Shown here: positions 29,091 through 48,860 of the stretch, one piece after another | Layout: the number at the start of each line of letters is the position of its first letter | Numbering within the stretch: position 1 is the stretch's first letter | Origin: Escherichia coli | Lineage (GTDB): Bacteria > Pseudomonadota > Gammaproteobacteria > Enterobacterales > Enterobacteriaceae | Length of the DNA stretch: 64,000 nt | Reading direction: 5' to 3' (one strand) | Assembly (NCBI RefSeq): GCF_030384885.1 | Contig: NZ_CP128613.1 | Notes under the pieces: model-generated | The model's input: the letters and a program-made list of their open reading frames with translations, nothing else | Database searches by the model: none | What the model was told of the DNA's origin: nothing | Program-made: the position numbers and the translations under genes

Positions 29091-29410
29091 TATTCATCAG
29101 AAACGATTATGTAAATCATTTTATTTTTCCGACGGCTTCAATGTCGAAAGAAAAGAATACGCCCGTATTTCCTGAATAGATTGACTTTTTTATCCAACCA
29201 CACTTCAGCTCACTGTGTTTAAAAAATGCCTCTTTCTTATGCGGAATATCATCATTTCATCATGATGTCTTTGATGAGCGGTGAACACAATACACTTGCG
29301 CTGTCTCTTCAGGATGAATCCCCTTGGTCTGGTGCCTGTGGGCTGATGTTGCAGCAGAGCTAAGGTTGCTTAAACGCTACTCAGTATTCACTTTTCAGAG
29401 GATGAAATTT

Positions 29411-32400
29411 ATGAACAGGACCAGTCCCTATTATTTTCGCCGCTCAGTACTTTCCTTATTGATATCTGCTTTGATATATGCCCCACCAGGGATGGCAGCT
29501 TTTACTTCAACCGTTATTGGCGTGGTAAACGATGAGACTGTAGATGGCGTCCAAAGAGTGGATGAACGAGGTACAACAAATAACACTCATATTATCAACC
29601 ACGGTTATCAGGATGTTTATGGCGGGGTATCTAATGGAAGTATTATTGAATCTGGTGGATATCAAGATGTAGGAGGTCATTACAATTTTGTGGGGCAGGC
29701 TAATAATACAACCATTAACGGGGGCAGACAGACAATTCATGACGGGGGTATTTCCACAGGTACGATAATCGAGAGTGGCAATCAGGACGTTTATACGGGT
29801 GGTATCAGCAATGGAACGACAATTAAGGGGGGTAATTCACACATAAGTGGGGGGACTGCGAATGGAACAATCATTGATGGTGGCAGCCAACGAGTAACAA
29901 CTCAGGGGCATGTCGACAGTACAACAATAAATAAGTCTGGCTCTCAGGACATCACGCAAGGAAGTCTGGCAACGAACACAACCATAAATGGTGGTCGACA
30001 GTATGTTGAACAGAGCACAGTAGAAACAACCACCATTAAAAATGGCGGTGAGCAAAGAGTATATGAAAACCATGCGCTGGACACGACGATTGAAGGTGGA
30101 ACTCAGTCTTTGAATAATAAGTCAACGGCAAAATATACTCAGATCTATTCTGGAGGTACTCAAATTGTTGATTACACCAGCACCTCGGATGTTATTGAAA
30201 TTTATTCCGGTGGCGTGCTTGATGTTAGTGGTGGTACGGCAACAAATGTTACCCAGCACGATGGTGCAATTTTAAAAACAAACACTAACGGTACGACGGT
30301 GAGCGGTACGAATAGTGAAGGGGCATTCTCTATTCACAATAACGTGGCAGACAATGTGTTGCTGGAAAACGGTGGTCATTTAGACGTATATGGTTCGGCA
30401 AACAAGACAATTATTAAAGATAACGGAACAATGTCAGTTTTAGCGAATGCTAAAGCTGATGCGACCCGAATAGATAATGGCGGCGTTATGGATGTTGCCG
30501 GAAACGCGACAAATACCATAATTAATGGTGGCACACAGAATATAAATAATCATGGTATTGCCACGGGAACCAATATCAACAGCGGAACACAAAATATCAA
30601 GAGCGGCGGGAAAGCTGACACGACAAATATCTCCTCCGGGAGCCGGCAGGTTGTTGAGAAAGATGGTACGGCAACTGGCAGCAATATTAGTGCCGGAGGC
30701 TCGCTGATTGTCTATACCGGTGGTATCGCACATGGGGTTAACCAGGAGACGGGTAGTGCTTTAGTTGCCAACACGGGCGCAGGGACTGATATTGAAGGAT
30801 ACAACAAGCTCTCTCACTTCACTATTACCGGAGGGGAGGCTAATTATGTTGTGCTGGAAAATACCGGCGAACTGACGGTAGTGGCTAAAACCACGGCGAA
30901 AAATACTACCGTTGATGCTGGCGGTAAGCTGATTGTCCAGAAGGAGGCTAAAACAGATAGCACCAGACTTAATAATGGTGGCGTTCTGGAGGTTCAGGAC
31001 GGTGGTGAGGCTAAGCATGTTGAGCAACAATCCGGCGGCGCATTAATTGCTTCCACGACTTCCGGAACACTTATCGAAGGAACTAACAGTTATGGTGATG
31101 CTTTCTACATCAGGAATTCAGAAGCTAAAAATGTAGTGCTGGAAAACGCTGGCTCATTAACAGTCGTTACTGGTTCCCGGGCAGTTGATACGATTATTAA
31201 TGCCAACGGCAAAATGGATGTTTATGGAAAAGATGTTGGCACTGTACTCAATAGTGCGGGCACCCAAACAATATATGCCAGTGCCACTTCTGATAAAGCA
31301 AATATCAAAGGTGGCAAGCAAACGGTATATGGTTTAGCCACTGAGGCAAATATCGAAAGTGGTGAACAAATTGTTGATGGTGGGTCAACAGATAAAACGC
31401 ACCTCAAAGGCGGCACGCAAACCGTTCAGAATTATGGTAAGGCGATCAATACCGATATCGTCTCTGGCCTACAACAAATTATGGCAAACGGGACAACGGA
31501 AGGTTCCATTATTAATGGCGGTTCACAGGTAGTTAATGAGGGCGGTCTGGCTGAAAACTCGGTACTTAATGACGGCGGCACACTCGATGTGCGGGAGAAA
31601 GGCAGCGCTACGGGGATACAGCAGAGTAGCCAGGGCGCGCTGGTGGCAACCACCAGGGCGACGCGGGTCACAGGGACACGCGCTGATGGCGTCGCGTTCA
31701 GCATCGAGCAGGATGCGGCGAACAATATCCTGCTGGCAAATGGCGGCGTGTTAACCGTGGAGTCAGACACCACTTCCGCCAAAACACAGGTCAATGCGGG
31801 CGGACGGGAGATCGTCAAAACAAAAGCCACTGCGACTGGCACGATGCTTACCGGCGGTGAACAAATCGTCGAGGGTGTGGCGAATGAGACAACGATTAAC
31901 GACGGCGGAATACAAACAGTTTCGGCTAACGGTGAGGCAGTAAAAACAACGATTAATGAAGGCGGTACGCTGACAGTCAACGATAATGGCAAAGCGACAG
32001 ATATCATCCAGAACAGCGGTGCCGCTCTCCAGACGAGCACGGCTAACGGTATTGAAATCAGCGGTACTCACCAGTACGGCACCTTTTCCATTGCCGGAAA
32101 TTTAGCGACCAATGCGTTGCTGGAAAATGGCGGTAATTTATTGGTATTAGCAGGTACCGAAGCTCGCGATTCCACGGTTGGCAACGGTGGGGCAATGCAA
32201 AACCTGGGTCAGGACTTCGCCACAAAGGTTAATTCCGGTGGGCAATATACCCTTGGTCGGTCAAAAGATGAGTTTCAGGCTCTGGCCCGGGCAGAAGATC
32301 TACAGGTCGCTGGCGGGACGGCAATCGTCTACGCAGGTACGCTGGCGGATGCATCGGTCAGTGGCGCGACAGGAAGCCTGTCGTTAATGACGCCACGGGA

Positions 32401-33979
32401 TAATGTTACGCCAGTTAAACTTGAAGGGGTGGTCCGGATTACCGATAGCGCGACATTAACTATCGGAAATGGCGTCGATACGACGCTTGCCGACCTGACG
32501 GCTGCCAGCCGGGGCAGTGTCTGGCTTAACAGCAATAATTCCTGTGCAGGCACCAGCAACTGCGAATATAGAGTAAACAGTTTGCTCCTCAACGACGGTG
32601 ATGTTTATTTATCAGCACAAACAGCAGCGCCTGCCACAACTAACGGTATCTACAATACGCTGACCACCAGTGAACTTTCCGGCAGCGGTAATTTCTACCT
32701 GCATACCAACGTTGCAGGCTCCCGGGGCGATCAACTGGTCGTCAACAACAACGCCACTGGCAATTTTAAAATCTTTGTTCAGGATACCGGCGTCAGCCCT
32801 CAGTCTGACGACGCGATGACGCTGGTGAAAACAGGGGGAGGGGATGCTTCGTTTACGCTGGGTAATACCGGCGGTTTCGTTGATCTTGGGACCTATGAGT
32901 ATGTCCTGAAAAGCGACGGCAACAGCAACTGGAACCTGACCAATGATGTCAAACCCAACCCGGATCCCAACCCAAATCCGAAACCGGATCCAAAACCAGA
33001 CCCAAAACCGGATCCGAAACCAGACCCGACTCCCGATCCAACGCCGACACCCGTCCCGGAGAAACGCATCACGCCTTCTACGGCAGCCGTACTCAATATG
33101 GCAGCAACATTACCGTTGGTCTTTGATGCTGAGCTAAACAGTATTCGCGAGCGGTTGAACATAATGAAAGCGAGTCCACACAACAATAATGTCTGGGGGA
33201 CGACGTATAACACCCGTAATAATGTCACCACCGATGCGGGTGCCGGGTTTGAGCAGACGCTGACCGGAATGACGGTGGGGATCGATAGCCGTAATGATAT
33301 TCCTGAGGGGATTGCGACGCTGGGCGCTTTTATGGGTTATTCCCATTCACATATCGGTTTTGATCGTGGAGGACATGGCAGTGTGGGCAGTTATTCTCTG
33401 GGGGGCTATGTCAGCTGGGAACATGAAAGTGGTTTCTATCTGGACGGTATCGTGAAGCTGAACCGCTTTGAAAGTAACGTAGCCGGTAAAATGAGCAGCG
33501 GTGGAGCCGCCAACGGCAGTTATCGCAGCAACGGGCTGGGTGGTCATCTTGAAACCGGGATGCGATTTACCGATGGTAACTGGAACCTGACGCCGTATGC
33601 ATCGTTAACGGGGTTCACCGCTGATAACCCCGAATATCATTTATCCAATGGTATGGAATCGAAATCAGTCGATACCCGCAGTATATATCGTGAACTGGGC
33701 GCAACGCTGAGTTACAACATGCGTCTGGGGAACGGCATGGAAGTTGAGCCGTGGCTGAAGGCGGCTGTGCGCAAAGAATTTGTCGATGATAACCGGGTGA
33801 AAGTGAATAATGACGGTAATTTTGTCAATGATTTGTCGGGCAGACGTGGAATATACCAGGCAGGTATTAAAGCCTCATTCAGCAGTTCGTTAAGCGGGCA
33901 TCTCGGGGTAGGGTATAGCAATGGTGCTGGTTTGGAATCCCCGTGGAACGCGGTGGCTGGTGTGAACTGGTCGTTCTGA
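29411..33979 (+). CDS. ypjA: AIDA-I/Ag43-type autotransporter adhesin (beta-helix passenger with ~19-aa repeats, Pro-rich linker, C-terminal beta-barrel translocator)
   Basis: Start MNRTSPYYFRRSVLSLLISALIYAPPGMAAF (signal peptide; SD aggatg upstream; alt ATG 29402); dozens of GGxQxVxxGGxAxxTxI repeats; C-terminal ...NAVAGVNWSF barrel; position next to ssrA island end as ypjA in K-12. Confidence 0.8.
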   Translation: MNRTSPYYFRRSVLSLLISALIYAPPGMAAFTSTVIGVVNDETVDGVQRVDERGTTNNTHIINHGYQDVYGGVSNGSIIESGGYQDVGGHYNFVGQANNTTINGGRQTIHDGGISTGTIIESGNQDVYTGGISNGTTIKGGNSHISGGTANGTIIDGGSQRVTTQGHVDSTTINKSGSQDITQGSLATNTTINGGRQYVEQSTVETTTIKNGGEQRVYENHALDTTIEGGTQSLNNKSTAKYTQIYSGGTQIVDYTSTSDVIEIYSGGVLDVSGGTATNVTQHDGAILKTNTNGTTVSGTNSEGAFSIHNNVADNVLLENGGHLDVYGSANKTIIKDNGTMSVLANAKADATRIDNGGVMDVAGNATNTIINGGTQNINNHGIATGTNINSGTQNIKSGGKADTTNISSGSRQVVEKDGTATGSNISAGGSLIVYTGGIAHGVNQETGSALVANTGAGTDIEGYNKLSHFTITGGEANYVVLENTGELTVVAKTTAKNTTVDAGGKLIVQKEAKTDSTRLNNGGVLEVQDGGEAKHVEQQSGGALIASTTSGTLIEGTNSYGDAFYIRNSEAKNVVLENAGSLTVVTGSRAVDTIINANGKMDVYGKDVGTVLNSAGTQTIYASATSDKANIKGGKQTVYGLATEANIESGEQIVDGGSTDKTHLKGGTQTVQNYGKAINTDIVSGLQQIMANGTTEGSIINGGSQVVNEGGLAENSVLNDGGTLDVREKGSATGIQQSSQGALVATTRATRVTGTRADGVAFSIEQDAANNILLANGGVLTVESDTTSAKTQVNAGGREIVKTKATATGTMLTGGEQIVEGVANETTINDGGIQTVSANGEAVKTTINEGGTLTVNDNGKATDIIQNSGAALQTSTANGIEISGTHQYGTFSIAGNLATNALLENGGNLLVLAGTEARDSTVGNGGAMQNLGQDFATKVNSGGQYTLGRSKDEFQALARAEDLQVAGGTAIVYAGTLADASVSGATGSLSLMTPRDNVTPVKLEGVVRITDSATLTIGNGVDTTLADLTAASRGSVWLNSNNSCAGTSNCEYRVNSLLLNDGDVYLSAQTAAPATTNGIYNTLTTSELSGSGNFYLHTNVAGSRGDQLVVNNNATGNFKIFVQDTGVSPQSDDAMTLVKTGGGDASFTLGNTGGFVDLGTYEYVLKSDGNSNWNLTNDVKPNPDPNPNPKPDPKPDPKPDPKPDPTPDPTPTPVPEKRITPSTAAVLNMAATLPLVFDAELNSIRERLNIMKASPHNNNVWGTTYNTRNNVTTDAGAGFEQTLTGMTVGIDSRNDIPEGIATLGAFMGYSHSHIGFDRGGHGSVGSYSLGGYVSWEHESGFYLDGIVKLNRFESNVAGKMSSGGAANGSYRSNGLGGHLETGMRFTDGNWNLTPYASLTGFTADNPEYHLSNGMESKSVDTRSIYRELGATLSYNMRLGNGMEVEPWLKAAVRKEFVDDNRVKVNNDGNFVNDLSGRRGIYQAGIKASFSSSLSGHLGVGYSNGAGLESPWNAVAGVNWSF
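32950..33058 (+). repeat. Hexanucleotide-based Pro-Asp/Pro-Lys tandem repeat (PNPDPNPNPKPDPKPDPKPDPKPDPTPDPTPTPVP linker)
   Basis: ccggatccaaaaccagacccaaaaccggatccgaaaccagacccg... directly visible. Confidence 0.6.
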
Positions 33980-34346: not shown

Positions 34347-35114
34347 TTATTGTTTTATTATCTTAACGTGCGCCGTTCCTCCATTGACTTTTTCGAAATC
34401 TTGGAACAAGGCAGGGGCATCTTGAGTTACAATATCGTAAAGTTTTTCTGAAACTGTTCTCATTTCATAGTCACCCTGTATTGCTCCTCTCATTTCGAAG
34501 AAGTGTCGAATTGCGCGAGCATTTGCTGTGACGATTATTTTTGTCTCGGTTGCATTAGGCAATATAGAGCGAGAAGCGCTTCTTAAGGCCCGCATTTTTT
34601 CTTTTTTGTTCTCATACGATTGGTTTTCACGGATTTTTTTCAAGGATTGCTTATAAAAATCCAGACTACTTTCAATATGTTGGCACCATGACTTAAACAA
34701 TTCTGGGTCATTTTTTACTTCTATAGGGGCTACGAATTCAGCATCGGATTCATCATGATACTGTTGGGATAACTGGCTATATGAAAAACCAGCTCTATGC
34801 CGAACTAGCTGGTGTGTAAATGCACGAGATACCCCAGTAATTAAAAAGGTCCAGTTCAAATGTTCTAAGACACTTTCATGCCCTTGAATAATTAAATTGT
34901 TGATATATTGACTTGTAGTCCGTGGAGACTGCTTATCCTCTCCAAAAGACATATAACATAGCCTGCCAGCGGCCTCTACCAGAAGCTCAGCTTCGGTCGC
35001 CTGCCCTTTGCGAACCCATTGCAATGATGATGTGTTTAAAAAATCATCAAAAACATTACTTTCAAATGAAGGGTGTGATATGCATTTTACTGATAAATCA
35101 GAGATTTTTATCAT
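34347..35114 (-). CDS. thyX: Flavin-dependent thymidylate synthase ThyX
   Basis: 255 aa with ThyX signature RHRAGFSYSQLSQQY (RHRx7-8S...RY) and C-terminal ARAIRHFFEMR; AT-rich. Confidence 0.75.
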   Translation of the reverse strand: MIKISDLSVKCISHPSFESNVFDDFLNTSSLQWVRKGQATEAELLVEAAGRLCYMSFGEDKQSPRTTSQYINNLIIQGHESVLEHLNWTFLITGVSRAFTHQLVRHRAGFSYSQLSQQYHDESDAEFVAPIEVKNDPELFKSWCQHIESSLDFYKQSLKKIRENQSYENKKEKMRALRSASRSILPNATETKIIVTANARAIRHFFEMRGAIQGDYEMRTVSEKLYDIVTQDAPALFQDFEKVNGGTAHVKIIKQ

Positions 35115-35116
35115 TT

Positions 35117-35902
35117 TTACTCCCGTATAGCTTTTGGGGTGCTTACTTTAGCATCAACCTTTGGTTCGTTTGATTTAGCATTTTTTAGTAATTCAACGGT
35201 GCTTTTTAGGCTATTTATTTCATTTTGTTGAACTTTTATTGTTAATTCAAGATCTTTTGTACTACTGACATTACTGGATACTATTTGAAATAAGAAAGGA
35301 ATTGCTAGGGTTATCAACGTTAGCATTAAGGCTGCTATCGCAATTATAAAGCCAGTTTTTTTCGCAATGATTTTATTGATTTCTTTCGGAAGTCGTTTAT
35401 CAAGTCCTGCAAAATCCTTTCCCATTCTAGAAAGTTGATCATCATCCAATTTATTTACGATTTTTCCTTGGTAACCTTTAGTCGGTATTATTGTTTTAAA
35501 TAATAACATTCGGGCTACTGCTGAATTTTGTGTCAATGAGAATGGTTCTTTTGACATATTTACAAGATATATTGAAATTATGCCATTATATCCAGGGTCA
35601 ATATGCCCTGGATTCGTCATGATAATTCCATTTTTTGATAGTGTGTTTCTTGGAAATATTACACCAGCTAAATTTTTTGCAAGTTGGAATTTTTCATTTA
35701 ACTCTAATATTACAGTTTCCCCTGGCATCAGGATATGGTTGTTACGTGTTTTTTTATTGTCTTGACAGTCTGGTATATGTATTGTTTTTACAGAGAGATC
35801 AATGCTTGCAGATTGAACTTTAAATGTTCCATTTAATACCGTTAATGGATCAAAAATGTTGCCTCGCTGAATTTCATCATTGATTTCTATTTCAGACAGC
35901 AT
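35117..35902 (-). CDS. dCTP deaminase/dUTPase-fold (Dcd-like) domain protein with C-terminal TM helix and coiled-coil tail; catalytic Glu apparently replaced
   Basis: Aligns to E. coli Dcd: ASIDLSV / LMPGETVILEL / PRNTLSKNG / IDPGYNGIISIYLVN (Dcd has IDPGWSGCIVLEFYN); residues 185-210 hydrophobic (GFIIAIAALMLTLITLAIPFLF). Confidence 0.6.
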   Translation of the reverse strand: MLSEIEINDEIQRGNIFDPLTVLNGTFKVQSASIDLSVKTIHIPDCQDNKKTRNNHILMPGETVILELNEKFQLAKNLAGVIFPRNTLSKNGIIMTNPGHIDPGYNGIISIYLVNMSKEPFSLTQNSAVARMLLFKTIIPTKGYQGKIVNKLDDDQLSRMGKDFAGLDKRLPKEINKIIAKKTGFIIAIAALMLTLITLAIPFLFQIVSSNVSSTKDLELTIKVQQNEINSLKSTVELLKNAKSNEPKVDAKVSTPKAIRE

Positions 35903-35928: not shown

Positions 35929-36942
35929 TTATAAATTAGCCAGAGGGTTTTTTATTACTGCATCTTCAAGATGCTCTGGGGAAAAATGTGCATAAATCAT
36001 AGTCATTTTTATATCAGAGTGGCCTAAAATATCTCGTAAAACCAAAATATTACCACCATTCATCATAAAATGGCTGGCGAATGTATGGCGCAGAACGTGA
36101 GTGCATTGGCCCTCTGGTAACTCAATGTCAGCTCGCTTTACTGCTCGTTCAAAGGCTTTTCTGCAAGGAGTGAATAACTTCCCTCTGTTCTTAGGGAGTT
36201 CGTCATACAGATCCTGAGATATCGGCACGGTACGGTTTTTCTTGCCCTTAGTCTTGGTATAGGTGATCCGGTATTTCGATAACTGATGGCCCTGCAGATT
36301 TTCGGCTTCACTCCAGCGCGCGCCGGTGGCCAGGCATATTTTTGTAATTAAAAGTAGACTGGGGCTTTGAGAATCAGCACAGGCATCCAGCAGACGTTTA
36401 ATTTCTTCCGGGGTCAGGAACGACAGTTCACCCTCAGCAATTTTAAATGTTGGCAGCCCGGCAAGCGGATTGGGGGCTGACCAGTGGCCCAACTTTTTCA
36501 GTGTGCCAAAAACAGATGATAGGTTGCGCTGTTCAAGGTTTACAGTGCGGGGCTTAACGGGCGACATAAGCGTGCCCTCTTCATTTCGCACTTCACCTTT
36601 TAGCCGCGCTTCTCGGTATTTAGTAAAATCACCGGCTGTCAGCTCTGAGGCGATGGGATCGCCTAGACCATTACAGATAATTCTAAGTTTCGCCATGAGG
36701 CGCTTGGGGTCTGCGAGTGTTTGACCATACAGGGAATACCACTGCTCAATTAATTCTGATAGGTGTCGCCGATCTTCCTTTTCCCCCAGCCATGGCTTTT
36801 TGTTCACTTCTTCCATTGTGAAGCTTTCAAAAGCAATGGCTTCGCCTTTCGTAGCAAATTGCTTACGCACGCGCTTGCCATTGCGTCCATGGGGATAGCA
36901 CTCGCACAACCATTTACCGTTTGGCTGTTTTCTGACAGTCAT
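35929..36942 (-). CDS. int: Tyrosine integrase, P2 family
   Basis: 337 aa; N-terminus MTVRKQPNGKWLCECYPHGRNGKRVRKQFATKGEAIAFE resembles P2 Int MAIKKLDDGRYEVDIRPTGRNGKRIRRKF...; C-terminal HxxR...Y catalytic region (HVLRHTFASH...MIYAH). Confidence 0.85.
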   Translation of the reverse strand: MTVRKQPNGKWLCECYPHGRNGKRVRKQFATKGEAIAFESFTMEEVNKKPWLGEKEDRRHLSELIEQWYSLYGQTLADPKRLMAKLRIICNGLGDPIASELTAGDFTKYREARLKGEVRNEEGTLMSPVKPRTVNLEQRNLSSVFGTLKKLGHWSAPNPLAGLPTFKIAEGELSFLTPEEIKRLLDACADSQSPSLLLITKICLATGARWSEAENLQGHQLSKYRITYTKTKGKKNRTVPISQDLYDELPKNRGKLFTPCRKAFERAVKRADIELPEGQCTHVLRHTFASHFMMNGGNILVLRDILGHSDIKMTMIYAHFSPEHLEDAVIKNPLANL

Positions 36943-36944
36943 GT

Positions 36945-37577
36945 TTAGATACTCTTTATTACTTTGACTGCACGCCCAATAACTTCCACATCATCAGTAG
37001 AGCACTCGAAAGACGCTTCATCTTGATTTACTACAATCTTATTGCCGGGAATCCGCATGATTTTTGCAACAATAATCATTCCATCAATATTGATAAGCCA
37101 GAATCCATTGCTGACCTGTTTAATTGATTTATCGATGAGATAACAATTAGTAGGGGTTTCTAAGAACATCAATTCTTCATAATCTGCAGGTAATATGCTG
37201 TGGTCTAGGAAAATCTCTTCATCAATACTGAGTTGTCCATTCTCCAGGGTTCCTTTAGGAATAGCTGGAGTTATGAGTTTGGATAACGGTTTAATTGCTT
37301 GTTTGTTCTCATTATGAGAACTTTTCTCAGGCTCAGCTCCTCCTTTCATGCTTCCCTGTCCTGTAGCTAACCAAAGCAACGAAACACCGGTTTCTAGTGC
37401 GCACTGAATTATCCAGTCAGCAGGAAAGCTGTCACGTAACACTCTGTTTGCCATAGTGCTTTTTGAGACATTCAGGTGCTCGCTTAATGCCTGCTTAGTT
37501 GTGAATCCATAAGCCTCAAGCAGCCTTTCAATAGCTGCCTTACCTCCCGTATCGGAACCCATTCTGATGTTTAACAT
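36945..37577 (-). CDS. CI-type immunity repressor (HTH N-domain + C-terminal oligomerisation domain, 186-like)
   Basis: 210 aa, HTH KQALSEHLNVSKSTMANRVLRD; located between int and divergent apl/cII as in coliphage 186. Confidence 0.65.
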   Translation of the reverse strand: MLNIRMGSDTGGKAAIERLLEAYGFTTKQALSEHLNVSKSTMANRVLRDSFPADWIIQCALETGVSLLWLATGQGSMKGGAEPEKSSHNENKQAIKPLSKLITPAIPKGTLENGQLSIDEEIFLDHSILPADYEELMFLETPTNCYLIDKSIKQVSNGFWLINIDGMIIVAKIMRIPGNKIVVNQDEASFECSTDDVEVIGRAVKVIKSI

Positions 37578-43337: not shown

Positions 43338-43489
43338 TTACGCGGGTTAACAATTCGTGCCCTTAATAATACCAGGCATATCAGGCTGATGAATGTAAAA
43401 AAACGTTTTACATCAGTAAGATTATTATATACTGTAAATATAAACAGTGGTTATCTATACAGTATTGCTTTGGTGTCATAGGAGGAAAG

Positions 43490-43678
43490 ATGCAGGACTA
43501 TTTTTTGGAGTCTTTGAAGCTCCAGCGCATTGATTTTTTTCTTAAGCTTGTAGCGGCTAGTGAGTGTAGTGATGAAGAGAAGGGGCTGGCTCTGCAGTGG
43601 GTTTCTGAACTGACAGATGAACTCATGGCAAAAATCAGAACCCACGAATACAACCGCTCAATGGATGTCATCAGCTGA
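43490..43678 (+). CDS. Hypothetical 62-aa protein
   Basis: Small ORF preceding dinI-like gene. Confidence 0.3.
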   Translation: MQDYFLESLKLQRIDFFLKLVAASECSDEEKGLALQWVSELTDELMAKIRTHEYNRSMDVIS

Positions 43679-43688
43679 GGTGACTTTT

Positions 43689-43922
43689 ATGCGCATTGAA
43701 ATAATGATCGATAAAGAGCAGAAGATTAGCCAGTCTACCCTGGACGCCCTTGAATCCGAGCTTTACCGCAATCTGCGCCCCCTGTATCCCAAAACGGTAA
43801 TCCGTATCCGTAAAGGTAGCTCTAACGGTGTGGAACTGACCGGACTGCAACTGGACGAAGAAAGAAAACAAGTGATGAAAATTATGCAGAAGGTGTGGGA
43901 AGACGACAGCTGGCTGCATTGA
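43689..43922 (+). CDS. DinI-family DNA-damage-inducible protein
   Basis: MRIEIMIDKEQKISQSTLDALESELYRNL...WEDDSWLH parallels DinI MRIEVTIAK...LSRR...WESADDW. Confidence 0.7.
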   Translation: MRIEIMIDKEQKISQSTLDALESELYRNLRPLYPKTVIRIRKGSSNGVELTGLQLDEERKQVMKIMQKVWEDDSWLH

Positions 43923-44035
43923 TTTTGTCAATAGACGCTTGTTTTTACTAATCAAAAAGGGTTACATATGAGTGAGAGGCGATGTCAATCAGATATCGCC
44001 TTGTTTTTTGTCAAGAAAAGAATAATAGGCTAAAA

Positions 44036-44713
44036 ATGAAAATTAATAATGTAGCGTTACCAATATCTCTTGCTGTAATCCTAACTGGTTGCGTGCCACA
44101 TGCTTCTAACCGAAATATCACTGCTATTGAAGTGGTGAAGCCTGCTATTGGGCAAAGTGCTACCGCCTACATGGGCGATCCCATTATCACATCTGCTACT
44201 GGATTTAAAACGGACGTACTAGAACTTGGTGCGGCTAATGGTGCATTGTCTTCTATCGCTGCTGGTACATATTGCAGTGAGGGGAATGGAATTTACCGCA
44301 ATTATCATAACCCTCAAGCTGTTGCGTTAAAAAATCTCTATGGGCAAATCGGTAACTATGTTGATTATGTTAGTTACGATGCTGCAAAAAATGAGATATC
44401 ACCGCCAAATGGTACTTCTTATACTGCATCAGAAATTTCTATCAAACGTGTTCCTGATGGGCTGTGTCGAGTTAGTAACTCATTGGTTAAGACTATCGAA
44501 TACAATGGAAATGCAGGCGGTGTAATGAAGTTCACCTATCGTGAATTTGCAAACGATATGGCTCGTGCAGCATTTACAACAGATTTTTCTGTAGATTCTA
44601 AGGGAAGTGACGTTATCGCTTACAAAGGTGCCAAGTTCAAAGTGAACAAGGCTGATAACTCGTCTATTTCTTATACAATTATTTCTGGCTTTGACAAGGC
44701 TGTCACGTTCTAG
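44036..44713 (+). CDS. Lipoprotein of unknown function (prophage hotspot cargo)
   Basis: MKINNVALPISLAVILTGC lipobox (LTGC); ~33% GC; start alternative 43982. Confidence 0.6.
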   Translation: MKINNVALPISLAVILTGCVPHASNRNITAIEVVKPAIGQSATAYMGDPIITSATGFKTDVLELGAANGALSSIAAGTYCSEGNGIYRNYHNPQAVALKNLYGQIGNYVDYVSYDAAKNEISPPNGTSYTASEISIKRVPDGLCRVSNSLVKTIEYNGNAGGVMKFTYREFANDMARAAFTTDFSVDSKGSDVIAYKGAKFKVNKADNSSISYTIISGFDKAVTF

Positions 44714-45038
44714 GTTTCACGCTTACTGAGTATGTTACGATTTTGCACATTCTGCATAAACGCGCATGTCTATGCTGCATGAGATCGCATGATCGTTTGA
44801 GGATCTTTTGTGTTAAGGCCCGCCAGTTCTGGCGGGCTTTTGCGTAGATCATGCAGGTGCATGAAAACCACTACATAAAGCGGGCAGGCGTGGCGGGGAT
44901 ACGAGCGCGCGTTATGACAAATAGATGATTAGCCTGATTTATTCACAGCTGTATAAATGATCACCTTGTAATTAGGTAAGTAATGTCTTCTATTATCATT
45001 GATTTGATAGGATTAATCTGTTTTTTGAGGATTAGAGG

Positions 45039-47375
45039 ATGATTGAAGAGGTAGTTATTGACAAAGTAGGCTCATATAATGGCCCTACTCAGCTTTTACA
45101 TGGGCTTTCTAAATTTAACTATTTATATGGAGCTAATGGTGCAGGTAAAACAACTATAAGTAAAATTATTAATGACCCTGAACAATATCCAACATGTCCG
45201 ATTAAATGGAAAAATAATATATCTTTAATAAGCTACGTATATAATAAAGATTTTGTTGAAAGAAATTTTAGTCAAGATAAAATTAAAGGTGTATTTACCC
45301 TTGGTAGCGATCTTAAGGAGGATGAAGAGAAATTAATATCTCTTGAAGAAGAAAAAAATAAGCTAATAGAATCTATTATAGCAAAGGAAAAGCTAATAGA
45401 TGGTGGTGATAATATATTAGGCGTTGTTAAACAAATCGAAGACCATGAAAAATCTTTTAAAGATTCATGTTGGAAGCAAAAAGTAAAACATGATAATGTG
45501 TTCTCAAAGGCTTTTGAGGGATTAAGGAATAGTAGTGAAAAATTTAAAGCTAGAGTGTTGGCTGAGTATGAAAATAACACATCAGAAGTTTGCTCAATAG
45601 CAGAGCTAATTGAGAAAGCAAAAATTGTTTTTTCTACTGAATTGACATCACATGTATCAATTACAATTCCATCCTTCAATGGGATAGATGATATTTTGAG
45701 TAGGGAGATTTGGAGTGAGCGTATTCTAGGGAAAAAAGACGTTAGTGTTTCAGACTTAATTACAATGCTCAATAACAGTGATTGGGTTAAGGAAGGTTTA
45801 ACATATTTCAGTAAATCTAATCCCAAGTGCCCATTCTGCCAGCAGGATGTAAATGATAATATATTTGATAATCTATCATCATATTTTGATAAAACATATG
45901 AGTTAAAAAAAAGAGAAATCGATGCATTGGTTTTACAATATGAACATCAACTTAATAATATCTTGCAGGCGATAGATGATATAAGGGCGATTAAATCTCC
46001 ATTCATAAATTATGAAGTGTTTGAGGATAAGGCTAAGATAGTATTATCTGAATTAAACAAGAATTTTGAATTGGCAAAAAATAAACGCAATTTTTTAAGT
46101 GAATCAGTTCATTTTAGTGACTTAAGTGAAGTTGTTGATGATTTTATTTCTTTTTTGAATGATTCAAATCTATTGATAGATAATAATAACAAAATACACA
46201 GTAATAGAAAGGTAGAGGCTAGTAATCTTTCTAATCAGATATGGGCATATATCGTAAAGGTGGAGTTAAAGTCTGAAATAACTTCTTACCGTAGCGAATC
46301 TGATAAATTTAATAGGAAGTTACAAGGGCTTAAATCTGGGTTAGAGGAAGACAAAAAGAAGTTAATGTTAAATGCTTCGGCTATTGAGGCAATTGAGTCT
46401 AATAAAACCAGTACTCTTCCAACTATTACAAAAATTAACAAGATTCTGGATTCTTATGGCTTCAAAAATTTTTACTTAAAACCCTCCGAAGATAAAAAGC
46501 ATTATATGATAGTGAGAGATAGTGGAGATAATGCTCGTACAACCCTTAGCGAGGGAGAAAAGACATTTATCACTTTTTTGTATTTTTATAGCCTTGTTAG
46601 AGGGAGTGATAATGCATCAGGTGTTTTAGATGATCGTGTTGTAGTATTTGATGATCCAATTTCAAGTTTAGATAGTGATATTCTGTTTATTGTAAGTTCG
46701 TTGATTAAAGATTTAATGGAGGATGTTCGTAAGGATGAAGGAAATATTAAGCAAATTATATTCCTTACACATAATATTTATTTTCATAAAGAGTTGACTT
46801 TTAATACTAAAAGATCCGGTAATCAAGCAATGAAAGAGGAGACTTTTTGGATTGTAAGGAAAAAAGGGAAGGTCTCATATCTTGAAAAGTGCGAATCAAA
46901 CCCAATAAAAACGTCTTATGATTTGCTCTGGTGCGAATTGAGAAGAACAGATATTAATAATAATACTATACAAAATACAATGCGAAGGATTTTGGAGAAT
47001 TACTTTAAGATATTAGGTGGGATGGATATTAGGAAGCTTGAATGTCATTTTTATGGTGATGAAAAAATCATATTTAAATCTTTAGTGTCATGGATTAATG
47101 ATGGTTCTCATTTTGCAGGTGATGATCTTTATATGAATTTAGATACGGAGTCTGTGCAAAAATATTTAATTGTTTTTCAGAAGATATTTGAGTGTAGTGA
47201 GCATACTGCCCATTACAAAATGATGATGGGTGAGTTTTATAGACCGTTAAATGAGTCACTTCATCTACAAGATGAGTTTGATATTGATGATAGTGCGAAT
47301 GATGAGTATGCTTCGTCAAAAATTGAGATAGAAGATGGAATAAACACATCTCTACATAGTAATACATATTTGTAA
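45039..47375 (+). CDS. RloC/PrrC-like ABC-ATPase with coiled-coil/CxxC hook insertion and C-terminal putative anticodon-nuclease domain (candidate anti-phage/abortive-infection protein)
   Basis: Walker A GANGAGKTT; signature LSEGEK; Walker B/D-loop VVVFDDPISSLD; H-loop FLTHN; ~450-aa K/E-rich insert containing KCPFCQ; C-terminal MRRILENYF...WINDGSHF (R...Nx3H); ~30% GC. Confidence 0.65.
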   Translation: MIEEVVIDKVGSYNGPTQLLHGLSKFNYLYGANGAGKTTISKIINDPEQYPTCPIKWKNNISLISYVYNKDFVERNFSQDKIKGVFTLGSDLKEDEEKLISLEEEKNKLIESIIAKEKLIDGGDNILGVVKQIEDHEKSFKDSCWKQKVKHDNVFSKAFEGLRNSSEKFKARVLAEYENNTSEVCSIAELIEKAKIVFSTELTSHVSITIPSFNGIDDILSREIWSERILGKKDVSVSDLITMLNNSDWVKEGLTYFSKSNPKCPFCQQDVNDNIFDNLSSYFDKTYELKKREIDALVLQYEHQLNNILQAIDDIRAIKSPFINYEVFEDKAKIVLSELNKNFELAKNKRNFLSESVHFSDLSEVVDDFISFLNDSNLLIDNNNKIHSNRKVEASNLSNQIWAYIVKVELKSEITSYRSESDKFNRKLQGLKSGLEEDKKKLMLNASAIEAIESNKTSTLPTITKINKILDSYGFKNFYLKPSEDKKHYMIVRDSGDNARTTLSEGEKTFITFLYFYSLVRGSDNASGVLDDRVVVFDDPISSLDSDILFIVSSLIKDLMEDVRKDEGNIKQIIFLTHNIYFHKELTFNTKRSGNQAMKEETFWIVRKKGKVSYLEKCESNPIKTSYDLLWCELRRTDINNNTIQNTMRRILENYFKILGGMDIRKLECHFYGDEKIIFKSLVSWINDGSHFAGDDLYMNLDTESVQKYLIVFQKIFECSEHTAHYKMMMGEFYRPLNESLHLQDEFDIDDSANDEYASSKIEIEDGINTSLHSNTYL

Positions 47376-47424: not shown

Positions 47425-47823
47425 TTAGTTAAGCTCATATGGAGAAAATTCTATAAGTTTCTCCCCGAGCCATGCGTTTATTTCCATAAATCGTTTTTGC
47501 AAAGGAATTAATTCATTTATCACAAAAACCTTACTAGCCTTCTCCACATCCCCAAACCCCCCAACATTATTAGGCATTATCCCCATCATTTGCGGCGGCA
47601 CACGGTGTGCCGCCATCATGTCGTCCCGGCTCACGTTCTTGATATTCAGAAACTCATCCTTCGCCGCGACTTCTGACAACGGGATAATCTGAAGCCCGTC
47701 CTTTTTGCCGTTAGGAGAGTACATAAACAGGTTGCGGAAGTTGCCTGGCCCTTTGGCACTTTTCATTGCGTTGCGGAGGTTGTTCACATCTTCTTGGTTC
47801 TGTGCGGCATCGGTCATGTACAT
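47425..47823 (-). pseudogene. Phage portal-like (P2 gpQ-like) C-terminal fragment; upstream part disrupted
   Basis: 132-aa ORF ...RVPPQMMGIMPNNVGGFGDVEK... oriented toward the hotspot as Q is relative to old/cos in P2; coding continues upstream only with frame breaks. Confidence 0.4.
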
Positions 47824-48153
47824 GATGAAACCTGCATGGCTGCCGTTGATGTAATACTTACGGCGGAACAGTGTGGCGGACTCGTTGAGCAGGGCTGACG
47901 GGATGGCAGAGAGATAACCTGGCAGGCCGTAGATCTCCTGGTTGATGTCCGGTTCCGCCCTTAATCATCTCAACCATGCGTTACAGCTCGATCCCCGCTG
48001 TGGCGTGAAAAAAGACAAACAGCAGCTGGAGCGCAGACTGCGCAATGACAGCCGCTGACAGAACGTGCCCCCGCGCACGGGCGGCACGGGGTGGCGAAAG
48101 GCACAGCCACATCAAAACCCCGTCCACCGCCCTTTATTTCAGGAGAAAGCAGC

Positions 48154-48357
48154 ATGAAGTTTGTTGCGCCAGAACAGGCACCGGAACAGGCGGAAATCAT
48201 CAGAAACACGCCGTTCTGGCCTGATGTGGACCTGTCGGAGTTTCGCAGTGTCATGCGCACTGACGGCACGGTGACGCAGCCGCGTTTAAAGCAGGTTGCG
48301 CTGTCGGCAATTTCGGAGGTCAACGCACCGATACGACCATTTGCATTGATGTAAACA
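48154..48357 (+). pseudogene. Short phage-derived ORF fragment adjacent to ssrA
   Basis: MKFVAPEQAPEQAEIIRNTPFWPDVDLSEFRSVMRTDGTVTQPRLKQ...; GC-rich unlike neighbouring cargo; likely truncated. Confidence 0.3.
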
Positions 48358-48446
48358 AAGTGAAGTTCTTCCATGTGAAACCTCTTTGCATGATTTCAAG
48401 ATGGCGACAGGCAAGATGGACGCAAAAGTCTGTCGCCATTTTGCCG

Positions 48447-48497
48447 CCACTACCAAAGAAAAAGGGGCTACGCTTTCACGTAACCCCTTGATTTATT
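48447..48497 (-). terminator. ssrA rho-independent terminator
   Basis: On minus strand: ggggttacgtgaaagcgtagcccc hairpin followed by TTTTT immediately after the CCA end. Confidence 0.6.
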
Positions 48498-48860
48498 TGG
48501 TGGAGCTGGCGGGAGTTGAACCCGCGTCCGAAATTCCTACATCCTCGGTACTACATGCTTAGTCAGTCTTTACATTCGCTTGCCAGCTGCGGACGGACAC
48601 GCCACTAACAAACTAGCCTGATTAAGTTTTAACGCTTCAACCCCAGGCAGGGCTTCCACGCGATCTCTTTTGGGTTTGACCTCTCTTGATCCCCGTCCTA
48701 AGAGCGGAGGCTAGGGAGAGAGGGCTCTAAGCAGGTTATTAAGCTGCTAAAGCGTAGTTTTCGTCGTTTGCGACTATTTTTTGCGGCTTTTTACGAGGCC
48801 AACCGCCCCTCGGCATGCACCTTGGGTTTCGCAAATCCCGTCGAATCCAGAATCAGCCCC
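48498..48860 (-). ncRNA. ssrA: tmRNA (transfer-messenger RNA, 363 nt)
   Basis: Reverse complement reads GGGGCTGATTCTGGATTCGACGGG...ANDENYALAA tag reading frame...GGTTCAACTCCCGCCAGCTCCACCA, matching E. coli ssrA end to end. Confidence 0.95.

What the first reader, a model, noticed from the sequence alone, without database searches (positions are those of the whole stretch)
43490..44713. Hotspot cargo upstream of the ATPase: DinI-like gene plus AT-rich lipoprotein of unknown function
Three genes lie between the replication gene and the RloC-like gene. The first is a 62-aa ORF. The second is a DinI homolog (MRIEIMIDK...WEDDSWLH), a RecA-filament modulator and SOS-linked. The third is a 226-aa lipoprotein (lipobox LTGC at Cys19) with no recognisable domain, ~33% GC. 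Phage-encoded lipoproteins at such loci are often superinfection-exclusion factors (Cor/Llp-type), but this one is much larger. It may be an independent moron or may function with the downstream ATPase.
Basis: partly seen in the sequence, partly recalled or inferred. Interest (0 to 1): 0.5.

Follow-up and report, generated by a model that had tools for sequence, protein, structure and literature searches.

The report
Prophage SOS operon with orphan lipoprotein
The first two genes are the DNA-damage-triggered induction switch of a Fels-2/186-type prophage, and the third is an uncharacterised lipoprotein (predicted outer-membrane) at the end of the same predicted LexA-controlled operon; the phage's genome-end (cos) site separates all three from the neighbouring ATPase, so the locus is largely ordinary.

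Summary
All three genes are real. Two details need correcting: the lipoprotein is 225 aa (44036-44713) and 40.7% GC, not 33%.

The first two genes are not hotspot cargo. They are the conserved LexA-controlled "tum" module of 186/Fels-2/PsP3-type phages. A near-consensus LexA box (43430-43449) precedes a TumA-like antirepressor (62 aa) and a DinI-like TumB (77 aa). This module occurs in 1124 of 5426 complete E. coli genomes.

The lipoprotein follows a terminator-like hairpin placed like 186's partial terminator t95a. It fills the slot that orf97 fills in phage 186, as the last gene before cos (44887-44905). Its 99%-identical Fels-2 ortholog STM2726 belongs to an operon in which all three genes rose after mutagen treatment.

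The ATPase lies beyond cos and assorts independently. No complete E. coli genome has the lipoprotein and this ATPase adjacent. Lipoprotein-bearing phages carry five other cargos in that position.

The lipoprotein belongs to a large family (about 2,570 clusters) with no Pfam domain. Its confident all-beta model has no fold match. It has no conserved neighbour. It occurs in phages, plasmids, islands and chromosomes.

Its function is unknown. My best guess, at low confidence, is envelope-level exclusion or protection.

The parts
43407..43449 (+). p95-like SOS promoter with LexA box. The -35 is TTTACA (43407-43412), followed by a 17-nt spacer and a -10 TACTGT (43430-43435). The LexA box TACTGTAAATATAAACAGTG is at 43430-43449.
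   Evidence: The LexA box is the only match in the 64-kb window to the consensus TACTGTATATATATACAGTA at up to 3 mismatches, with 0 expected by chance. The exact 20-mer is conserved in 11 related loci: Fels-2, Klebsiella phage 4LV2017 and 9 E. coli. The layout matches the annotated p95/LexA site of phage 186. The promoter hexamers are inferred by analogy. The consensus scan did not call them.
43490..43678 (+). tumA-like gene: 62-aa candidate antirepressor. It is the counterpart of Fels-2 STM2728.
   Evidence: It hits phrog_698 (3.6e-38), phrog_8554 (2.4e-8) and phrog_1993 (0.0022). The N-terminal half of 186 Tum hits the same three PHROGs, and PsP3 TumA hits phrog_1993. BLASTP alone finds nothing. 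PMC3121763 states that tum is split in Fels-2 and PSP3, and that in PSP3 the upstream gene is the antirepressor. The module aligns almost base for base with the Fels-2 sequence.
43689..43922 (+). tumB: 77-aa DinI-like protein.
   Evidence: PF06183 at 6.5e-23. It is 42% identical to residues 72-145 of 186 Tum, E 4e-24. It matches phrog_189 positions 72-148. It scores below the NCBIfam equivalog cut-off for host DinI, 39 against 111 bits.
43976..44009 (+). Intrinsic-terminator-like hairpin plus T-run between tumB and the lipoprotein gene. It is the positional counterpart of 186 t95a, a partial terminator.
   Evidence: The scan finds an 11-bp stem, a 5-nt loop and the tail GTTTTTTG. Folding gives -16.6 kcal/mol, z -4.5. 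In 186, t95a is annotated 'partial termination of p95 transcript' at the equivalent place.
44036..44713 (+). 225-aa lipoprotein of unknown function, predicted to be outer-membrane. It belongs to PHROG 1353 and is the ortholog of Fels-2 STM2726 and E. coli WP_000700647.1.
   Evidence: The lipobox is LTGC with Cys19. G18 and C19 are invariant, and Cys80 and Cys144 are at least 90% conserved. It matches phrog_1353 at 3e-105 and has no Pfam, PADLOC or NCBIfam family. The AF2 model has pLDDT 82.1 and is all-beta. It is 99-100% identical in Fels-2, RE2010, 24 Klebsiella phage records and 49 E. coli genomes.
44815..44845 (+). GC-rich hairpin AAGGCCCGCCAGTTCTGGCGGGC followed by TTTTG. It is the likely end of the SOS transcript and lies inside the conserved cos-flanking segment.
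   Evidence: Folding gives -22.3 kcal/mol, z -5.3. The sequence is conserved in loci with and without the lipoprotein. It aligns with the CGCCAGAGCTGGCG palindrome near the right end of 186 and PsP3. The terminator scan did not call it, because it is followed by only four T.
44763..44912 (+). Conserved cos region. The cohesive-end 19-mer GGCGTGGCGGGGATACGAG is at 44887-44905, with the cut after 44886.
   Evidence: The window reads ...CATAAAGCGGGCA|GGCGTGGCGGGGA.... The right end of PsP3 is ...CATAAAGCGGGCA and that of 186 is ...CATAAAGTGGGCA. The 186 and PsP3 left end is GGCGTGGCGGGGAAAGCAT, which matches 15 of 19 bases. The segment is near-invariant across five aligned loci, while the sequence to its right diverges completely. 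The junction motif occurs in 10 loci.
45039..47375 (+). Context only, not part of the unit: a 778-aa AAA_13 ATPase, which is post-cos hotspot cargo next to the portal gene.
   Evidence: PF13166 at 5.8e-164. PADLOC candidate family PDC-S06 at 1.5e-266. It occurs directly after tumB and cos without any lipoprotein in E. coli MINF_1D, and after other pre-cos genes in E. coli D2.

Best explanation
Window 43407-44912 is the right-end SOS operon of a Fels-2/186-type P2-family prophage. This prophage is a remnant inserted at ssrA in E. coli.

Proposed mechanism, step by step:
- In an undamaged cell, LexA sits on the box that overlaps the -10 of a p95-like promoter. The sequence is shown; the binding is inferred.
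- After DNA damage, RecA-stimulated LexA cleavage derepresses the operon.
- The 62-aa TumA-like protein then inactivates the 186-type CI repressor encoded at 36945-37577. This is inferred from profile-level homology, position, and genetics published for PsP3, Fels-2 and DuoHS.
- The 77-aa DinI-like TumB modulates RecA/SOS. This is inferred from family membership.
- A fraction of transcripts reads through a t95a-like terminator into the third gene. This is inferred from the hairpin and the 186 annotation. It is consistent with array data in which all three genes of the Fels-2 operon STM2726-2728 rose after mutagen treatment.
- The third gene encodes a Sec/Lgt/Lsp-processed lipoprotein. It has no Asp at +2, so it is predicted to go to the outer membrane. 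It has a probable Cys80-Cys144 disulfide.
- Transcription ends at the hairpin inside the conserved cos region.

The lipoprotein is a stand-alone accessory gene in a variable pre-cos slot, the slot of 186 orf97. It does not work with the ATPase, which is separate post-cos cargo.

Most likely role of the lipoprotein: it acts at the cell envelope to exclude or blunt incoming threats, either heterologous phage at a post-adsorption step or periplasm-acting toxins. In this phage lineage its expression is timed to the SOS response.

Sub-confidences:
- Operon identity and architecture: about 0.9.
- Independence from the ATPase: about 0.95.
- SOS co-induction of the lipoprotein: about 0.65.
- Envelope exclusion or protection as its function: about 0.35.

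The overall confidence of 0.7 refers to the operon identity, the architecture and the independence from the ATPase taken together, not to the functional guess.
For: Architecture:
- The LexA box is unique in the window, with 0 expected by chance, and is exactly conserved in 11 loci.
- The gene order and both hairpins mirror the annotated 186 operon p95/LexA-tum-t95a-orf97-t95b.

TumA and TumB:
- The PHROG hits are shared with the N-terminal half of 186 Tum and with PsP3 TumA.
- TumB is 42% identical to the C-terminal half of 186 Tum.
- A 186-type CI repressor is present in the window (PF07022 plus PF16452).

Literature:
- The split tum of Fels-2 and PSP3 is described in PMC3121763.
- In Salmonella carrying Fels-2, operon STM2726-STM2727-STM2728 had all three genes at p<0.05, all rising after mutagen MX. 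The gene with the smallest p rose 14.8-fold and the gene with the largest p rose 2.6-fold. STM2727 is listed in the LexA-regulon table (PMC2225428).
- DuoHS of E. coli HS has the same gene order, the exact LexA box and a 100%-identical lipoprotein gene. It needs tum and cleavable LexA for induction (PMC12055606).

The cos site lies between the lipoprotein and the ATPase.

Independence from the ATPase:
- 0 of 1286 matching E. coli records hold tumAB, the lipoprotein and this ATPase contiguously.
- The lipoprotein is in 49 of 5426 genomes, the tum module in 1124.
- Lipoprotein-bearing phages carry AIPR, a retron RT, hyp+STAS, hyp+HIRAN or a 463-aa protein after cos.
- The ATPase occurs without the lipoprotein.

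Lipoprotein family:
- The lipobox is invariant in close homologs and present in 127 of 161 family members, with +2 never Asp.
- There is no conserved neighbour in other contexts.
- Homologs sit as single inserted genes in Acinetobacter and Moraxella phage tail regions and on IncFIB non-mobilizable plasmids.
- 186 Orf97, in the same slot, is annotated 'expression from plasmid blocks 186 infection'.
Against: - There are no expression data for this locus. The array paper does not say which of the three genes showed 2.6-fold.
- The promoter hexamers are weak and the consensus scan did not call them.
- The TumA assignment rests on profile links. Pairwise BLASTP finds nothing.
- The lipoprotein is not homologous to 186 Orf97 (E 4.5), so the functional analogy is positional only.
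- No sequence or fold match gives any functional hint.
- Capsule-less DuoHS lysogens still bind DuoHS virions, and at high phage concentrations they are still cleared, which the authors attribute to lysis from without (PMC13622650). An identical lipoprotein gene therefore evidently does not prevent self-adsorption, though the gene itself was not tested there.
- Some family members lie in plain chromosomal neighbourhoods, for example Erwinia next to an SDR and an AraC-type regulator. The family's role is therefore not intrinsically phage-related.
- The prophage here has lost its late genes, so 'induction' cannot yield phage.
Confidence: 0.7

Rival explanations
1. The lipoprotein and the AAA_13 ATPase form one two-gene defence system. 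The lipoprotein would be an envelope sensor and the ATPase the effector.
For: The two genes are adjacent and on the same strand in this window. Both are lower in GC than the phage backbone.
Against: - A terminator-like hairpin and the cos site lie between them.
- 0 of 5426 complete E. coli genomes have them contiguous.
- The ATPase stands alone after tumB and cos in MINF_1D.
- The lipoprotein is paired with five other post-cos cargos.
- The homolog contexts examined showed no AAA_13-type ATPase adjacent. The IncFIB plasmids have a small 222-aa 'AAA family ATPase' two or three genes away on the opposite strand.
- GC differs by 10 points, 40.7% against 30.6%.
Confidence: 0.03
2. The lipoprotein is a host-fitness (lysogenic-conversion) factor unrelated to phage exclusion. 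Examples would be a Bor/TraT-like serum or complement resistance protein, or an orphan immunity protein against periplasm-acting toxins such as T6SS effectors or bacteriocins. On this reading its SOS linkage is incidental read-through.
For: - The family is very large (2571 cluster representatives at E<=1e-3).
- It spans plasmids, genomic islands and ordinary chromosomal sites with no phage genes nearby.
- It is a stand-alone gene with no partner.
- DuoHS lysogens are not shielded from their own virions (PMC13622650).
Against: - There is no homology to Bor, TraT or any named immunity family.
- Two of the island contexts also carry OLD-like or AbiC-like defence genes.
- Independent capture by at least three unrelated temperate-phage types is the pattern typical of exclusion or defence morons.
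Confidence: 0.3
3. The lipoprotein serves the phage's own lytic cycle after SOS induction. It might remodel the envelope for lysis or release, or protect progeny from being trapped on debris, in the way T5 Llp does.
For: It is placed in the LexA-controlled operon that fires at induction. The architecture resembles colicin operons, where a lysis lipoprotein is expressed by read-through of a partial terminator; this comparison rests on my own knowledge.
Against: - Only 49 of about 1124 tum-bearing E. coli genomes have it, and the slot is often empty or filled by unrelated genes. It is therefore dispensable for the lytic cycle.
- Homologs occur in non-phage settings.
- Lysate from capsule-less DuoHS lysogens still dampens virion infectivity (PMC13622650).
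- At 225 aa with a folded beta domain, it is unlike the roughly 30-aa mature bacteriocin-release lipoproteins.
Confidence: 0.15
4. The lipoprotein ORF is a decaying or non-functional hitch-hiker.
For: The prophage in this window is a remnant.
Against: The ORF is intact and 99-100% identical across E. coli, Salmonella and Klebsiella phages. Conservation across the family is strong, with 26 invariant columns among 23 sequences down to 35% identity. The structure model is confident.
Confidence: 0.03

Closest known systems
SOS operon of coliphage 186 (p95/LexA - tum - t95a - orf97 - t95b; annotation of NC_001317)
   Same: - Same position, between replication gene A and cos.
- A LexA box overlaps the promoter -10.
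- The antirepressor and DinI-like modules are homologous.
- A terminator-like hairpin precedes the third gene.
- The third gene is the last one before cos.

   Different: - In 186, tum is one 146-aa fusion. Here a stop codon splits it into 62-aa and 77-aa proteins.
- The third gene is unrelated. 186 Orf97 is a 243-aa protein with an N-terminal hydrophobic segment rather than a lipobox, and the BLASTP E-value is 4.5.
- 186 has no cargo between cos and the portal gene.
Fels-2 STM2728 / STM2726.1 (STM2727) / STM2726, and DuoHS of E. coli HS
   Same: These are essentially the same operon:
- The LexA box is identical.
- The tumA/tumB module aligns almost base for base with Fels-2.
- The lipoprotein is 99.1% (Fels-2) and 100% (HS) identical.
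- cos is in the same place.

Mutagen induction of the Fels-2 operon is reported in PMC2225428. The requirement for tum and LexA in DuoHS is reported in PMC12055606.
   Different: The post-cos cargo differs: AIPR in Fels-2 and a 463-aa hypothetical in HS, against the AAA_13 ATPase here. Those phages are complete, whereas this prophage has lost its late genes.
PsP3 tumA / tumB
   Same: PsP3 also has a split tum with the antirepressor upstream and the DinI-like gene downstream (PMC3121763). PsP3 TumA and the window's 62-aa ORF both hit phrog_1993.
   Different: Pairwise similarity of the TumA proteins is undetectable by BLASTP. In PsP3 the pre-cos slot holds gp37 (69 aa) and gp38 (139 aa), not a lipoprotein.
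Phage exclusion lipoproteins T5 Llp and phi80/N15 Cor (from my own knowledge)
   Same: These are small phage-encoded outer-membrane lipoproteins that act alone at the envelope.
   Different: - There is no sequence or fold relationship.
- Llp and Cor are roughly 60-80 aa and target FhuA.
- P2-type phages use LPS or O-antigen (PMC13622650), which a periplasm-facing lipoprotein cannot mask.
- An identical lipoprotein gene in DuoHS does not stop self-adsorption.
P2 tin and old (pre-cos exclusion genes of phage P2) and the P2 defence hotspot (PMC9122126, PMC9519451)
   Same: These are accessory genes between the replication gene and the portal gene of P2-family prophages, in a variable locus known to hold anti-phage genes.
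   Different: The lipoprotein matches no PADLOC model, including the PD-T4, PD-lambda and PD-T7 families. In this lineage the hotspot is bipartite, split by cos, and the lipoprotein is in the smaller pre-cos part, inside the SOS transcript.

Membership tests
186-type LexA-controlled tum (SOS) operon | A LexA operator overlaps the promoter immediately upstream of tum, downstream of replication gene A. | tested here: met
   TACTGTAAATATAAACAGTG at 43430-43449 matches 17 of 20 consensus positions with both CTGT/ACAG arms intact. It is unique in the window with 0 expected. It lies 93 nt after the gpA stop and 40 nt before the tumA ATG, with the same layout as 186.
186-type LexA-controlled tum (SOS) operon | An antirepressor module homologous to the N-terminal half of 186 Tum or to PsP3 TumA. 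| tested here: met
   The link is at profile level only. The 62-aa ORF and 186 Tum(1-70) both hit phrog_698, phrog_8554 and phrog_1993, and PsP3 TumA hits phrog_1993. BLASTP is negative.
186-type LexA-controlled tum (SOS) operon | A DinI-like module homologous to the C-terminal half of 186 Tum. | tested here: met
   42% identity over 74 aa, E 4e-24.
186-type LexA-controlled tum (SOS) operon | A cognate 186-type CI repressor in the same element. | tested here: met
   Window 36945-37577(-) matches PF07022 (1.8e-30) and PF16452 (3.3e-29).
186-type LexA-controlled tum (SOS) operon | [quoted passage not shown] | not testable with these tools
   Only literature on near-identical operons is available. 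The Fels-2 operon was induced by MX (PMC2225428). [quoted passage not shown]
DinI family (PF06183) | The Pfam model is matched above the gathering score. | tested here: met
   81.3 bits against a cut-off of 24.2.
Host DinI (NCBIfam equivalog NF007893) | The score reaches the equivalog cut-off. | tested here: not met
   39.2 bits against a cut-off of 111. The protein is DinI-like, not an ortholog of chromosomal DinI.
Bacterial lipoprotein (Lgt/LspA substrate) | An N-terminal signal peptide ends in a lipobox [LVI][ASTVI][GAS]C. | tested here: met
   The N-terminus is MKINNVALPISLAVILTG|C. G18 and C19 are invariant in 23 homologs. 127 of 161 family members have a lipobox, and +2 is never Asp. Lipidation itself is not testable here.
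Phage 186 Orf97 family (phrog_3403) | Sequence homology to Orf97. | tested here: not met
   BLASTP E 4.5. The two proteins belong to different PHROGs, 1353 against 3403. Only the genomic slot is shared.
Known anti-phage defence families (PADLOC-DB v2) | A match to any defence-protein model. | tested here: not met
   0 families at E<=0.01 for the lipoprotein, the 62-aa ORF and the DinI-like protein.
Cor/Llp-type exclusion lipoproteins | Sequence or fold similarity to a characterised exclusion lipoprotein. | tested here: not met
Two-gene system with the AAA_13 (PDC-S06) ATPase | Conserved co-occurrence and co-transcription of the two genes. | tested here: not met
   0 contiguous co-occurrences in 5426 E. 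coli genomes. A hairpin and cos lie between the genes. Each gene is found without the other.

The most novel reading that the evidence does not exclude
The lipoprotein is the first recognisable member of a very large family, about 2,570 clusters at 50% identity, with no Pfam domain and no detectable fold relative. On this reading the family consists of single-gene outer-membrane lipoproteins that give envelope-level protection, either by blocking phage genome entry after adsorption or by neutralising periplasm-acting toxins. Unrelated temperate phages, phage-plasmids and islands have captured it repeatedly. In the Fels-2/DuoHS lineage it is wired to LexA, so that protection is switched on exactly when the SOS response fires.
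Probability: 0.2. Interest if true: 0.55.

Novelty: new member of a known kind. Interest (0 to 1): 0.28.

Why it matters
The main value is as a correction. Annotators of P2-family 'defence hotspots' should not count the tumA/tumB SOS switch as cargo. They should also treat the hotspot in this lineage as two independently assorting slots separated by cos, so adjacency across cos does not imply a functional pair.

The lipoprotein is the only open item. It is a widespread, structurally unassigned lipoprotein family that phages keep acquiring. It is cheap to test, because identical copies sit in tractable phages (Fels-2, and DuoHS in E. coli HS). A positive exclusion phenotype would add a new envelope-level defence family. 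A negative result would leave an ordinary moron of unknown role.

Tried and rejected
- Homology of the lipoprotein to 186 Orf97. It occupies the same slot and the mechanical ORF has the same length. BLASTP gave E 4.5, so this was rejected.
- Pfam, NCBIfam and PADLOC on the lipoprotein, and Pfam on 34 diverse family members. Nothing was found.
- A profile search against PDB sequences. The only hit had E 0.68.
- The genome-contig scan for family loci returned only 4 loci, too few for statistics.
- A second profile word-index search returned mostly the same close homologs.
- An own sigma-70 promoter for the lipoprotein. The only called site (44008-44037) overlaps the start codon, and the TTGTCA/TACTAA candidate at 43925-43951 is weak and mutated in phage 4LV2017. 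Rejected.
- A conserved neighbour gene across homolog contexts. None was found.
- Literature searches for the protein accessions, EcHS_A0921 and phrog_1353. There were no papers. The single paper mentioning STM2726 gave the operon-level array result.
- The lipoprotein reported as a defence gene by Vassallo et al. (PMC9519451). PADLOC carries models named for the Vassallo PD-T4, PD-lambda and PD-T7 systems, and none matched.
Full report
**Observation**

- The first is a 62-aa ORF at 43490-43678.
- The second is a 77-aa DinI-like protein at 43689-43922 (PF06183, E 6.5e-23).
- The third is a lipoprotein gene.

The mechanical ORF for the lipoprotein starts at 43982 and is 243 aa. That ATG lies inside a terminator-like hairpin. 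Twenty-one of the 22 aligned homologs have no comparable N-terminal extension beyond the Met at 44036. The product is therefore 225 aa, with lipobox LTGC and Cys19. Its GC is 40.7%, not about 33%. The ATPase is the truly AT-rich gene at 30.6%.

**The first two genes are the prophage's SOS switch, not cargo**

Forty nucleotides upstream of the 62-aa ORF lies TACTGTAAATATAAACAGTG (43430-43449). It is the only sequence in the 64-kb window within three mismatches of the LexA consensus, and none is expected by chance. The exact 20-mer is conserved in Fels-2, Klebsiella phage 4LV2017 and nine E. coli loci.

The annotated genome of coliphage 186 shows the same layout after gene A. Promoter p95 has a LexA site starting at its -10. 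The antirepressor gene tum follows, then the partial terminator t95a, then orf97, then t95b and cos.

The DinI-like protein is 42% identical to the C-terminal half of 186 Tum (E 4e-24). The 62-aa ORF has no BLASTP similarity to Tum or to PsP3 TumA. It does hit phrog_698, phrog_8554 and phrog_1993. The N-terminal half of 186 Tum hits the same three families, and PsP3 TumA hits phrog_1993.

Lemire et al. (PMC3121763) state that Fels-2 and PSP3 have tum split by a stop codon. In PSP3 the upstream half is the antirepressor and the downstream half the DinI homologue. The PsP3 record annotates tumA and tumB accordingly. A 186-type CI repressor, the presumed target, is encoded at 36945-37577.

The tumA/tumB module is present in 1124 of 5426 complete E. 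coli genomes, so it is backbone rather than hotspot cargo.

**The lipoprotein is the third gene of that operon, in the orf97 slot**

Between tumB and the lipoprotein gene lies an 11-bp-stem hairpin followed by GTTTTTTG (43976-44009). It folds at -16.6 kcal/mol, z -4.5. Its spacing is almost the same as that of t95a in 186. I found no credible separate promoter.

The Fels-2 ortholog, STM2726, is 99.1% identical. In MX-treated Salmonella, operon STM2726-STM2727-STM2728 had all three genes significantly up and moving in the same direction. The fold change was 14.8 for the gene with the smallest p and 2.6 for the gene with the largest p. STM2727 is listed with the LexA regulon (PMC2225428). This fits attenuated read-through, but the paper does not say which gene showed 2.6-fold.

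E. coli HS carries the same gene order, the exact LexA box and a 100%-identical lipoprotein gene in its functional P2-like prophage DuoHS. [quoted passage not shown]

The lipoprotein is not homologous to 186 Orf97 (E 4.5). Only the slot is shared.

**A cos site separates the lipoprotein from the ATPase**

Aligning the window with Fels-2, 4LV2017 and two E. coli loci shows a near-invariant segment of about 150 bp (44763-44912). It is present whether or not the lipoprotein is there. To its right the sequences diverge completely.

This segment ends in ...CATAAAGCGGGCA|GGCGTGGCGGGGATACGAG. The left part is the right terminus of the PsP3 and 186 virion DNA. The right part matches 15 of 19 bases of their annotated cohesive end, GGCGTGGCGGGGAAAGCAT.

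The cos site is therefore at 44887-44905. [quoted passage not shown] The ATPase is cargo at the left end, next to the portal gene.

A GC-rich hairpin with a short T-run (44815-44845; -22.3 kcal/mol, z -5.3) lies inside the conserved segment. It probably ends the SOS transcript, although the terminator scan did not call it.

**Two independently variable slots**

The pre-cos slot varies among tum-bearing E. coli prophages:
- It is empty in MINF_1D and J31.
- It holds the lipoprotein in HS, EC361 and STEC1587.
- It holds unrelated genes in others: ComF plus a hypothetical in D2, a 141-aa protein in PK8568, 71- and 280-aa proteins in WS0115A, and a 352-aa protein in MS6198.

The post-cos slot in lipoprotein-bearing phages also varies:
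- AIPR in Fels-2.
- A retron reverse transcriptase in 4LV2017.
- A hypothetical plus a STAS-like protein in STEC1587.
- A hypothetical plus a HIRAN protein in EC361.
- A 463-aa protein in HS.
- The AAA_13 ATPase in this window.

The same ATPase follows tumB and cos directly in MINF_1D, and follows other pre-cos genes in D2. No complete E. coli genome has tumAB, the lipoprotein and this ATPase contiguous. The lipoprotein itself is in 49 of 5426 genomes. The idea that the lipoprotein works with the ATPase is therefore rejected. The conserved cos region is a plausible recombination anchor that lets the two slots assort; this is inference.

**What the lipoprotein is**

- It has no Pfam, NCBIfam or PADLOC family.
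- It is a full-length member of PHROG 1353, function unknown.
- A profile of 23 homologs finds 2571 cluster representatives at E<=1e-3 and 1409 at E<=1e-10. Among the 150 best listed, most are 210-240 aa.
- None of 34 sampled members carries a meaningful Pfam domain.
- 127 of 161 full-length members have a lipobox, and the +2 residue is never Asp. This predicts outer-membrane sorting in enterobacteria.
- The mature protein has two other cysteines, C80 and C144, both at least 90% conserved. This suggests a periplasmic disulfide.
- The AlphaFold2 model is confident (pLDDT 82.1, pTM 0.64) and all-beta, with 17 strands.

Homologs occur in several settings:
- At 54-61% identity they sit in Klebsiella, Citrobacter and Pantoea islands with recombinases. 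Two of these islands carry an OLD-like nuclease a few kilobases away, and one an AbiC-like gene.
- One homolog lies on a contig with a MobA/MobL relaxase.
- Others lie in plain chromosomal neighbourhoods in Erwiniaceae.

- At 24-38% identity they are single inserted genes in the tail regions of Acinetobacter (Vieuvirus) and Moraxella phages.
- They are also on IncFIB non-mobilizable plasmids of about 95-108 kb.

No neighbour is conserved across these settings. The protein is thus a stand-alone accessory envelope protein that mobile elements acquire repeatedly.

**Likely function**

Nothing measured here assigns a function. The points in favour of an envelope-level exclusion or protection role are these:
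- The slot is the one that 186 Orf97 occupies, and Orf97 is annotated as blocking 186 infection when expressed from a plasmid.
- The P2 hotspot has a known defence content (PMC9519451).
- Unrelated temperate phages have captured the gene repeatedly.
- It is a solitary lipoprotein.

Against a Cor/Llp-like block of self-adsorption, capsule-less DuoHS lysogens still bind DuoHS virions. At high phage concentrations they are still cleared, which the authors attribute to lysis from without. The receptor is O-antigen (PMC13622650). A periplasm-facing lipoprotein could not mask that receptor.

I therefore favour a post-adsorption or heterotypic protective role, at about 0.35. A host-fitness or toxin-immunity role is about 0.3, and a role in the phage's own lytic cycle about 0.15.

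**Verdict**

The reading as 'hotspot cargo upstream of the ATPase' is largely wrong. This is the known Fels-2/186-type SOS operon plus an uncharacterised moron lipoprotein, unlinked to the ATPase. The only novelty is that the lipoprotein family is large and structurally unassigned, so interest is low to moderate.

Noticed in passing
window 47425-48860: The prophage is a remnant. Only a 132-aa C-terminal portal fragment survives (47425-47823, minus strand; PF04860, E 1e-7), followed by an 87-aa ORF whose residues 37-80 match the first 44 positions of the gpL head-completion profile (48091-48354; PF05926). Then comes tmRNA (48498-48860, minus strand) and smpB. The terminase, capsid, tail and lysis genes appear to be deleted. 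The SOS switch therefore controls a defective element that retains CI, replication gene A, the lipoprotein and the ATPase.
   Followed up: partly
window 34347-35902 (minus strand): A ThyX-type thymidylate synthase (PF02511, E 2.6e-48) and a dCTP-deaminase/dUTPase-like protein (PF22769, PF00692) sit immediately beside the integrase (35929-36942). They may be nucleotide-metabolism or defence cargo at the int end of the element.
   Followed up: partly
window 45039-47375: The AAA_13 ATPase has a Walker A motif (GANGAGKT, residues 31-38). It has a CPFC motif at 264-267 that could be a Rad50/RloC-like zinc hook. It also has a C-terminal R-x3-E...H pattern (RRILE at 649-653, DGSH at 688-691) reminiscent of PrrC/RloC anticodon-nuclease domains. 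It matches the PADLOC candidate family PDC-S06 (1.5e-266) and weakly matches PrrC (2.5e-11). The 'RloC-like' label is plausible but was not tested further.
   Followed up: partly
window 44763-44912; loci L001, L003, L020, L021, L030, L032-L036: The conserved cos-flanking segment marks a sharp boundary between conserved and totally divergent sequence in every locus examined. This suggests that it serves as the homologous anchor for cargo exchange on both of its sides.
   Followed up: partly
L039 3456-4133; L040 3426-4103 (E. coli IncFIB plasmids of about 95-108 kb): Homologs of the lipoprotein at 37-38% identity lie as lone opposite-strand genes between a DnaB-like helicase and a ParA-like ATPase, near a DUF1778/GNAT toxin-antitoxin pair. 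The plasmids are typed non-mobilizable and look like SSU5/pHCM2-type phage-plasmids. That identification is my inference.
   Followed up: no
L020 2025-2150 compared with L004 6337-6420: In E. coli MINF_1D the 'empty' pre-cos slot retains a stretch (GGTTGAACAACGAGCCCTTGCGAGGCGTTAGC) nearly identical to sequence just downstream of orf97 in phage 186. This hints that the slot was emptied by deletion of an orf97-like gene.
   Followed up: no
window 29324-33979: A very long ORF (1551 aa, TTG start, plus strand) lies to the left of the prophage remnant. It was not examined.
   Followed up: no
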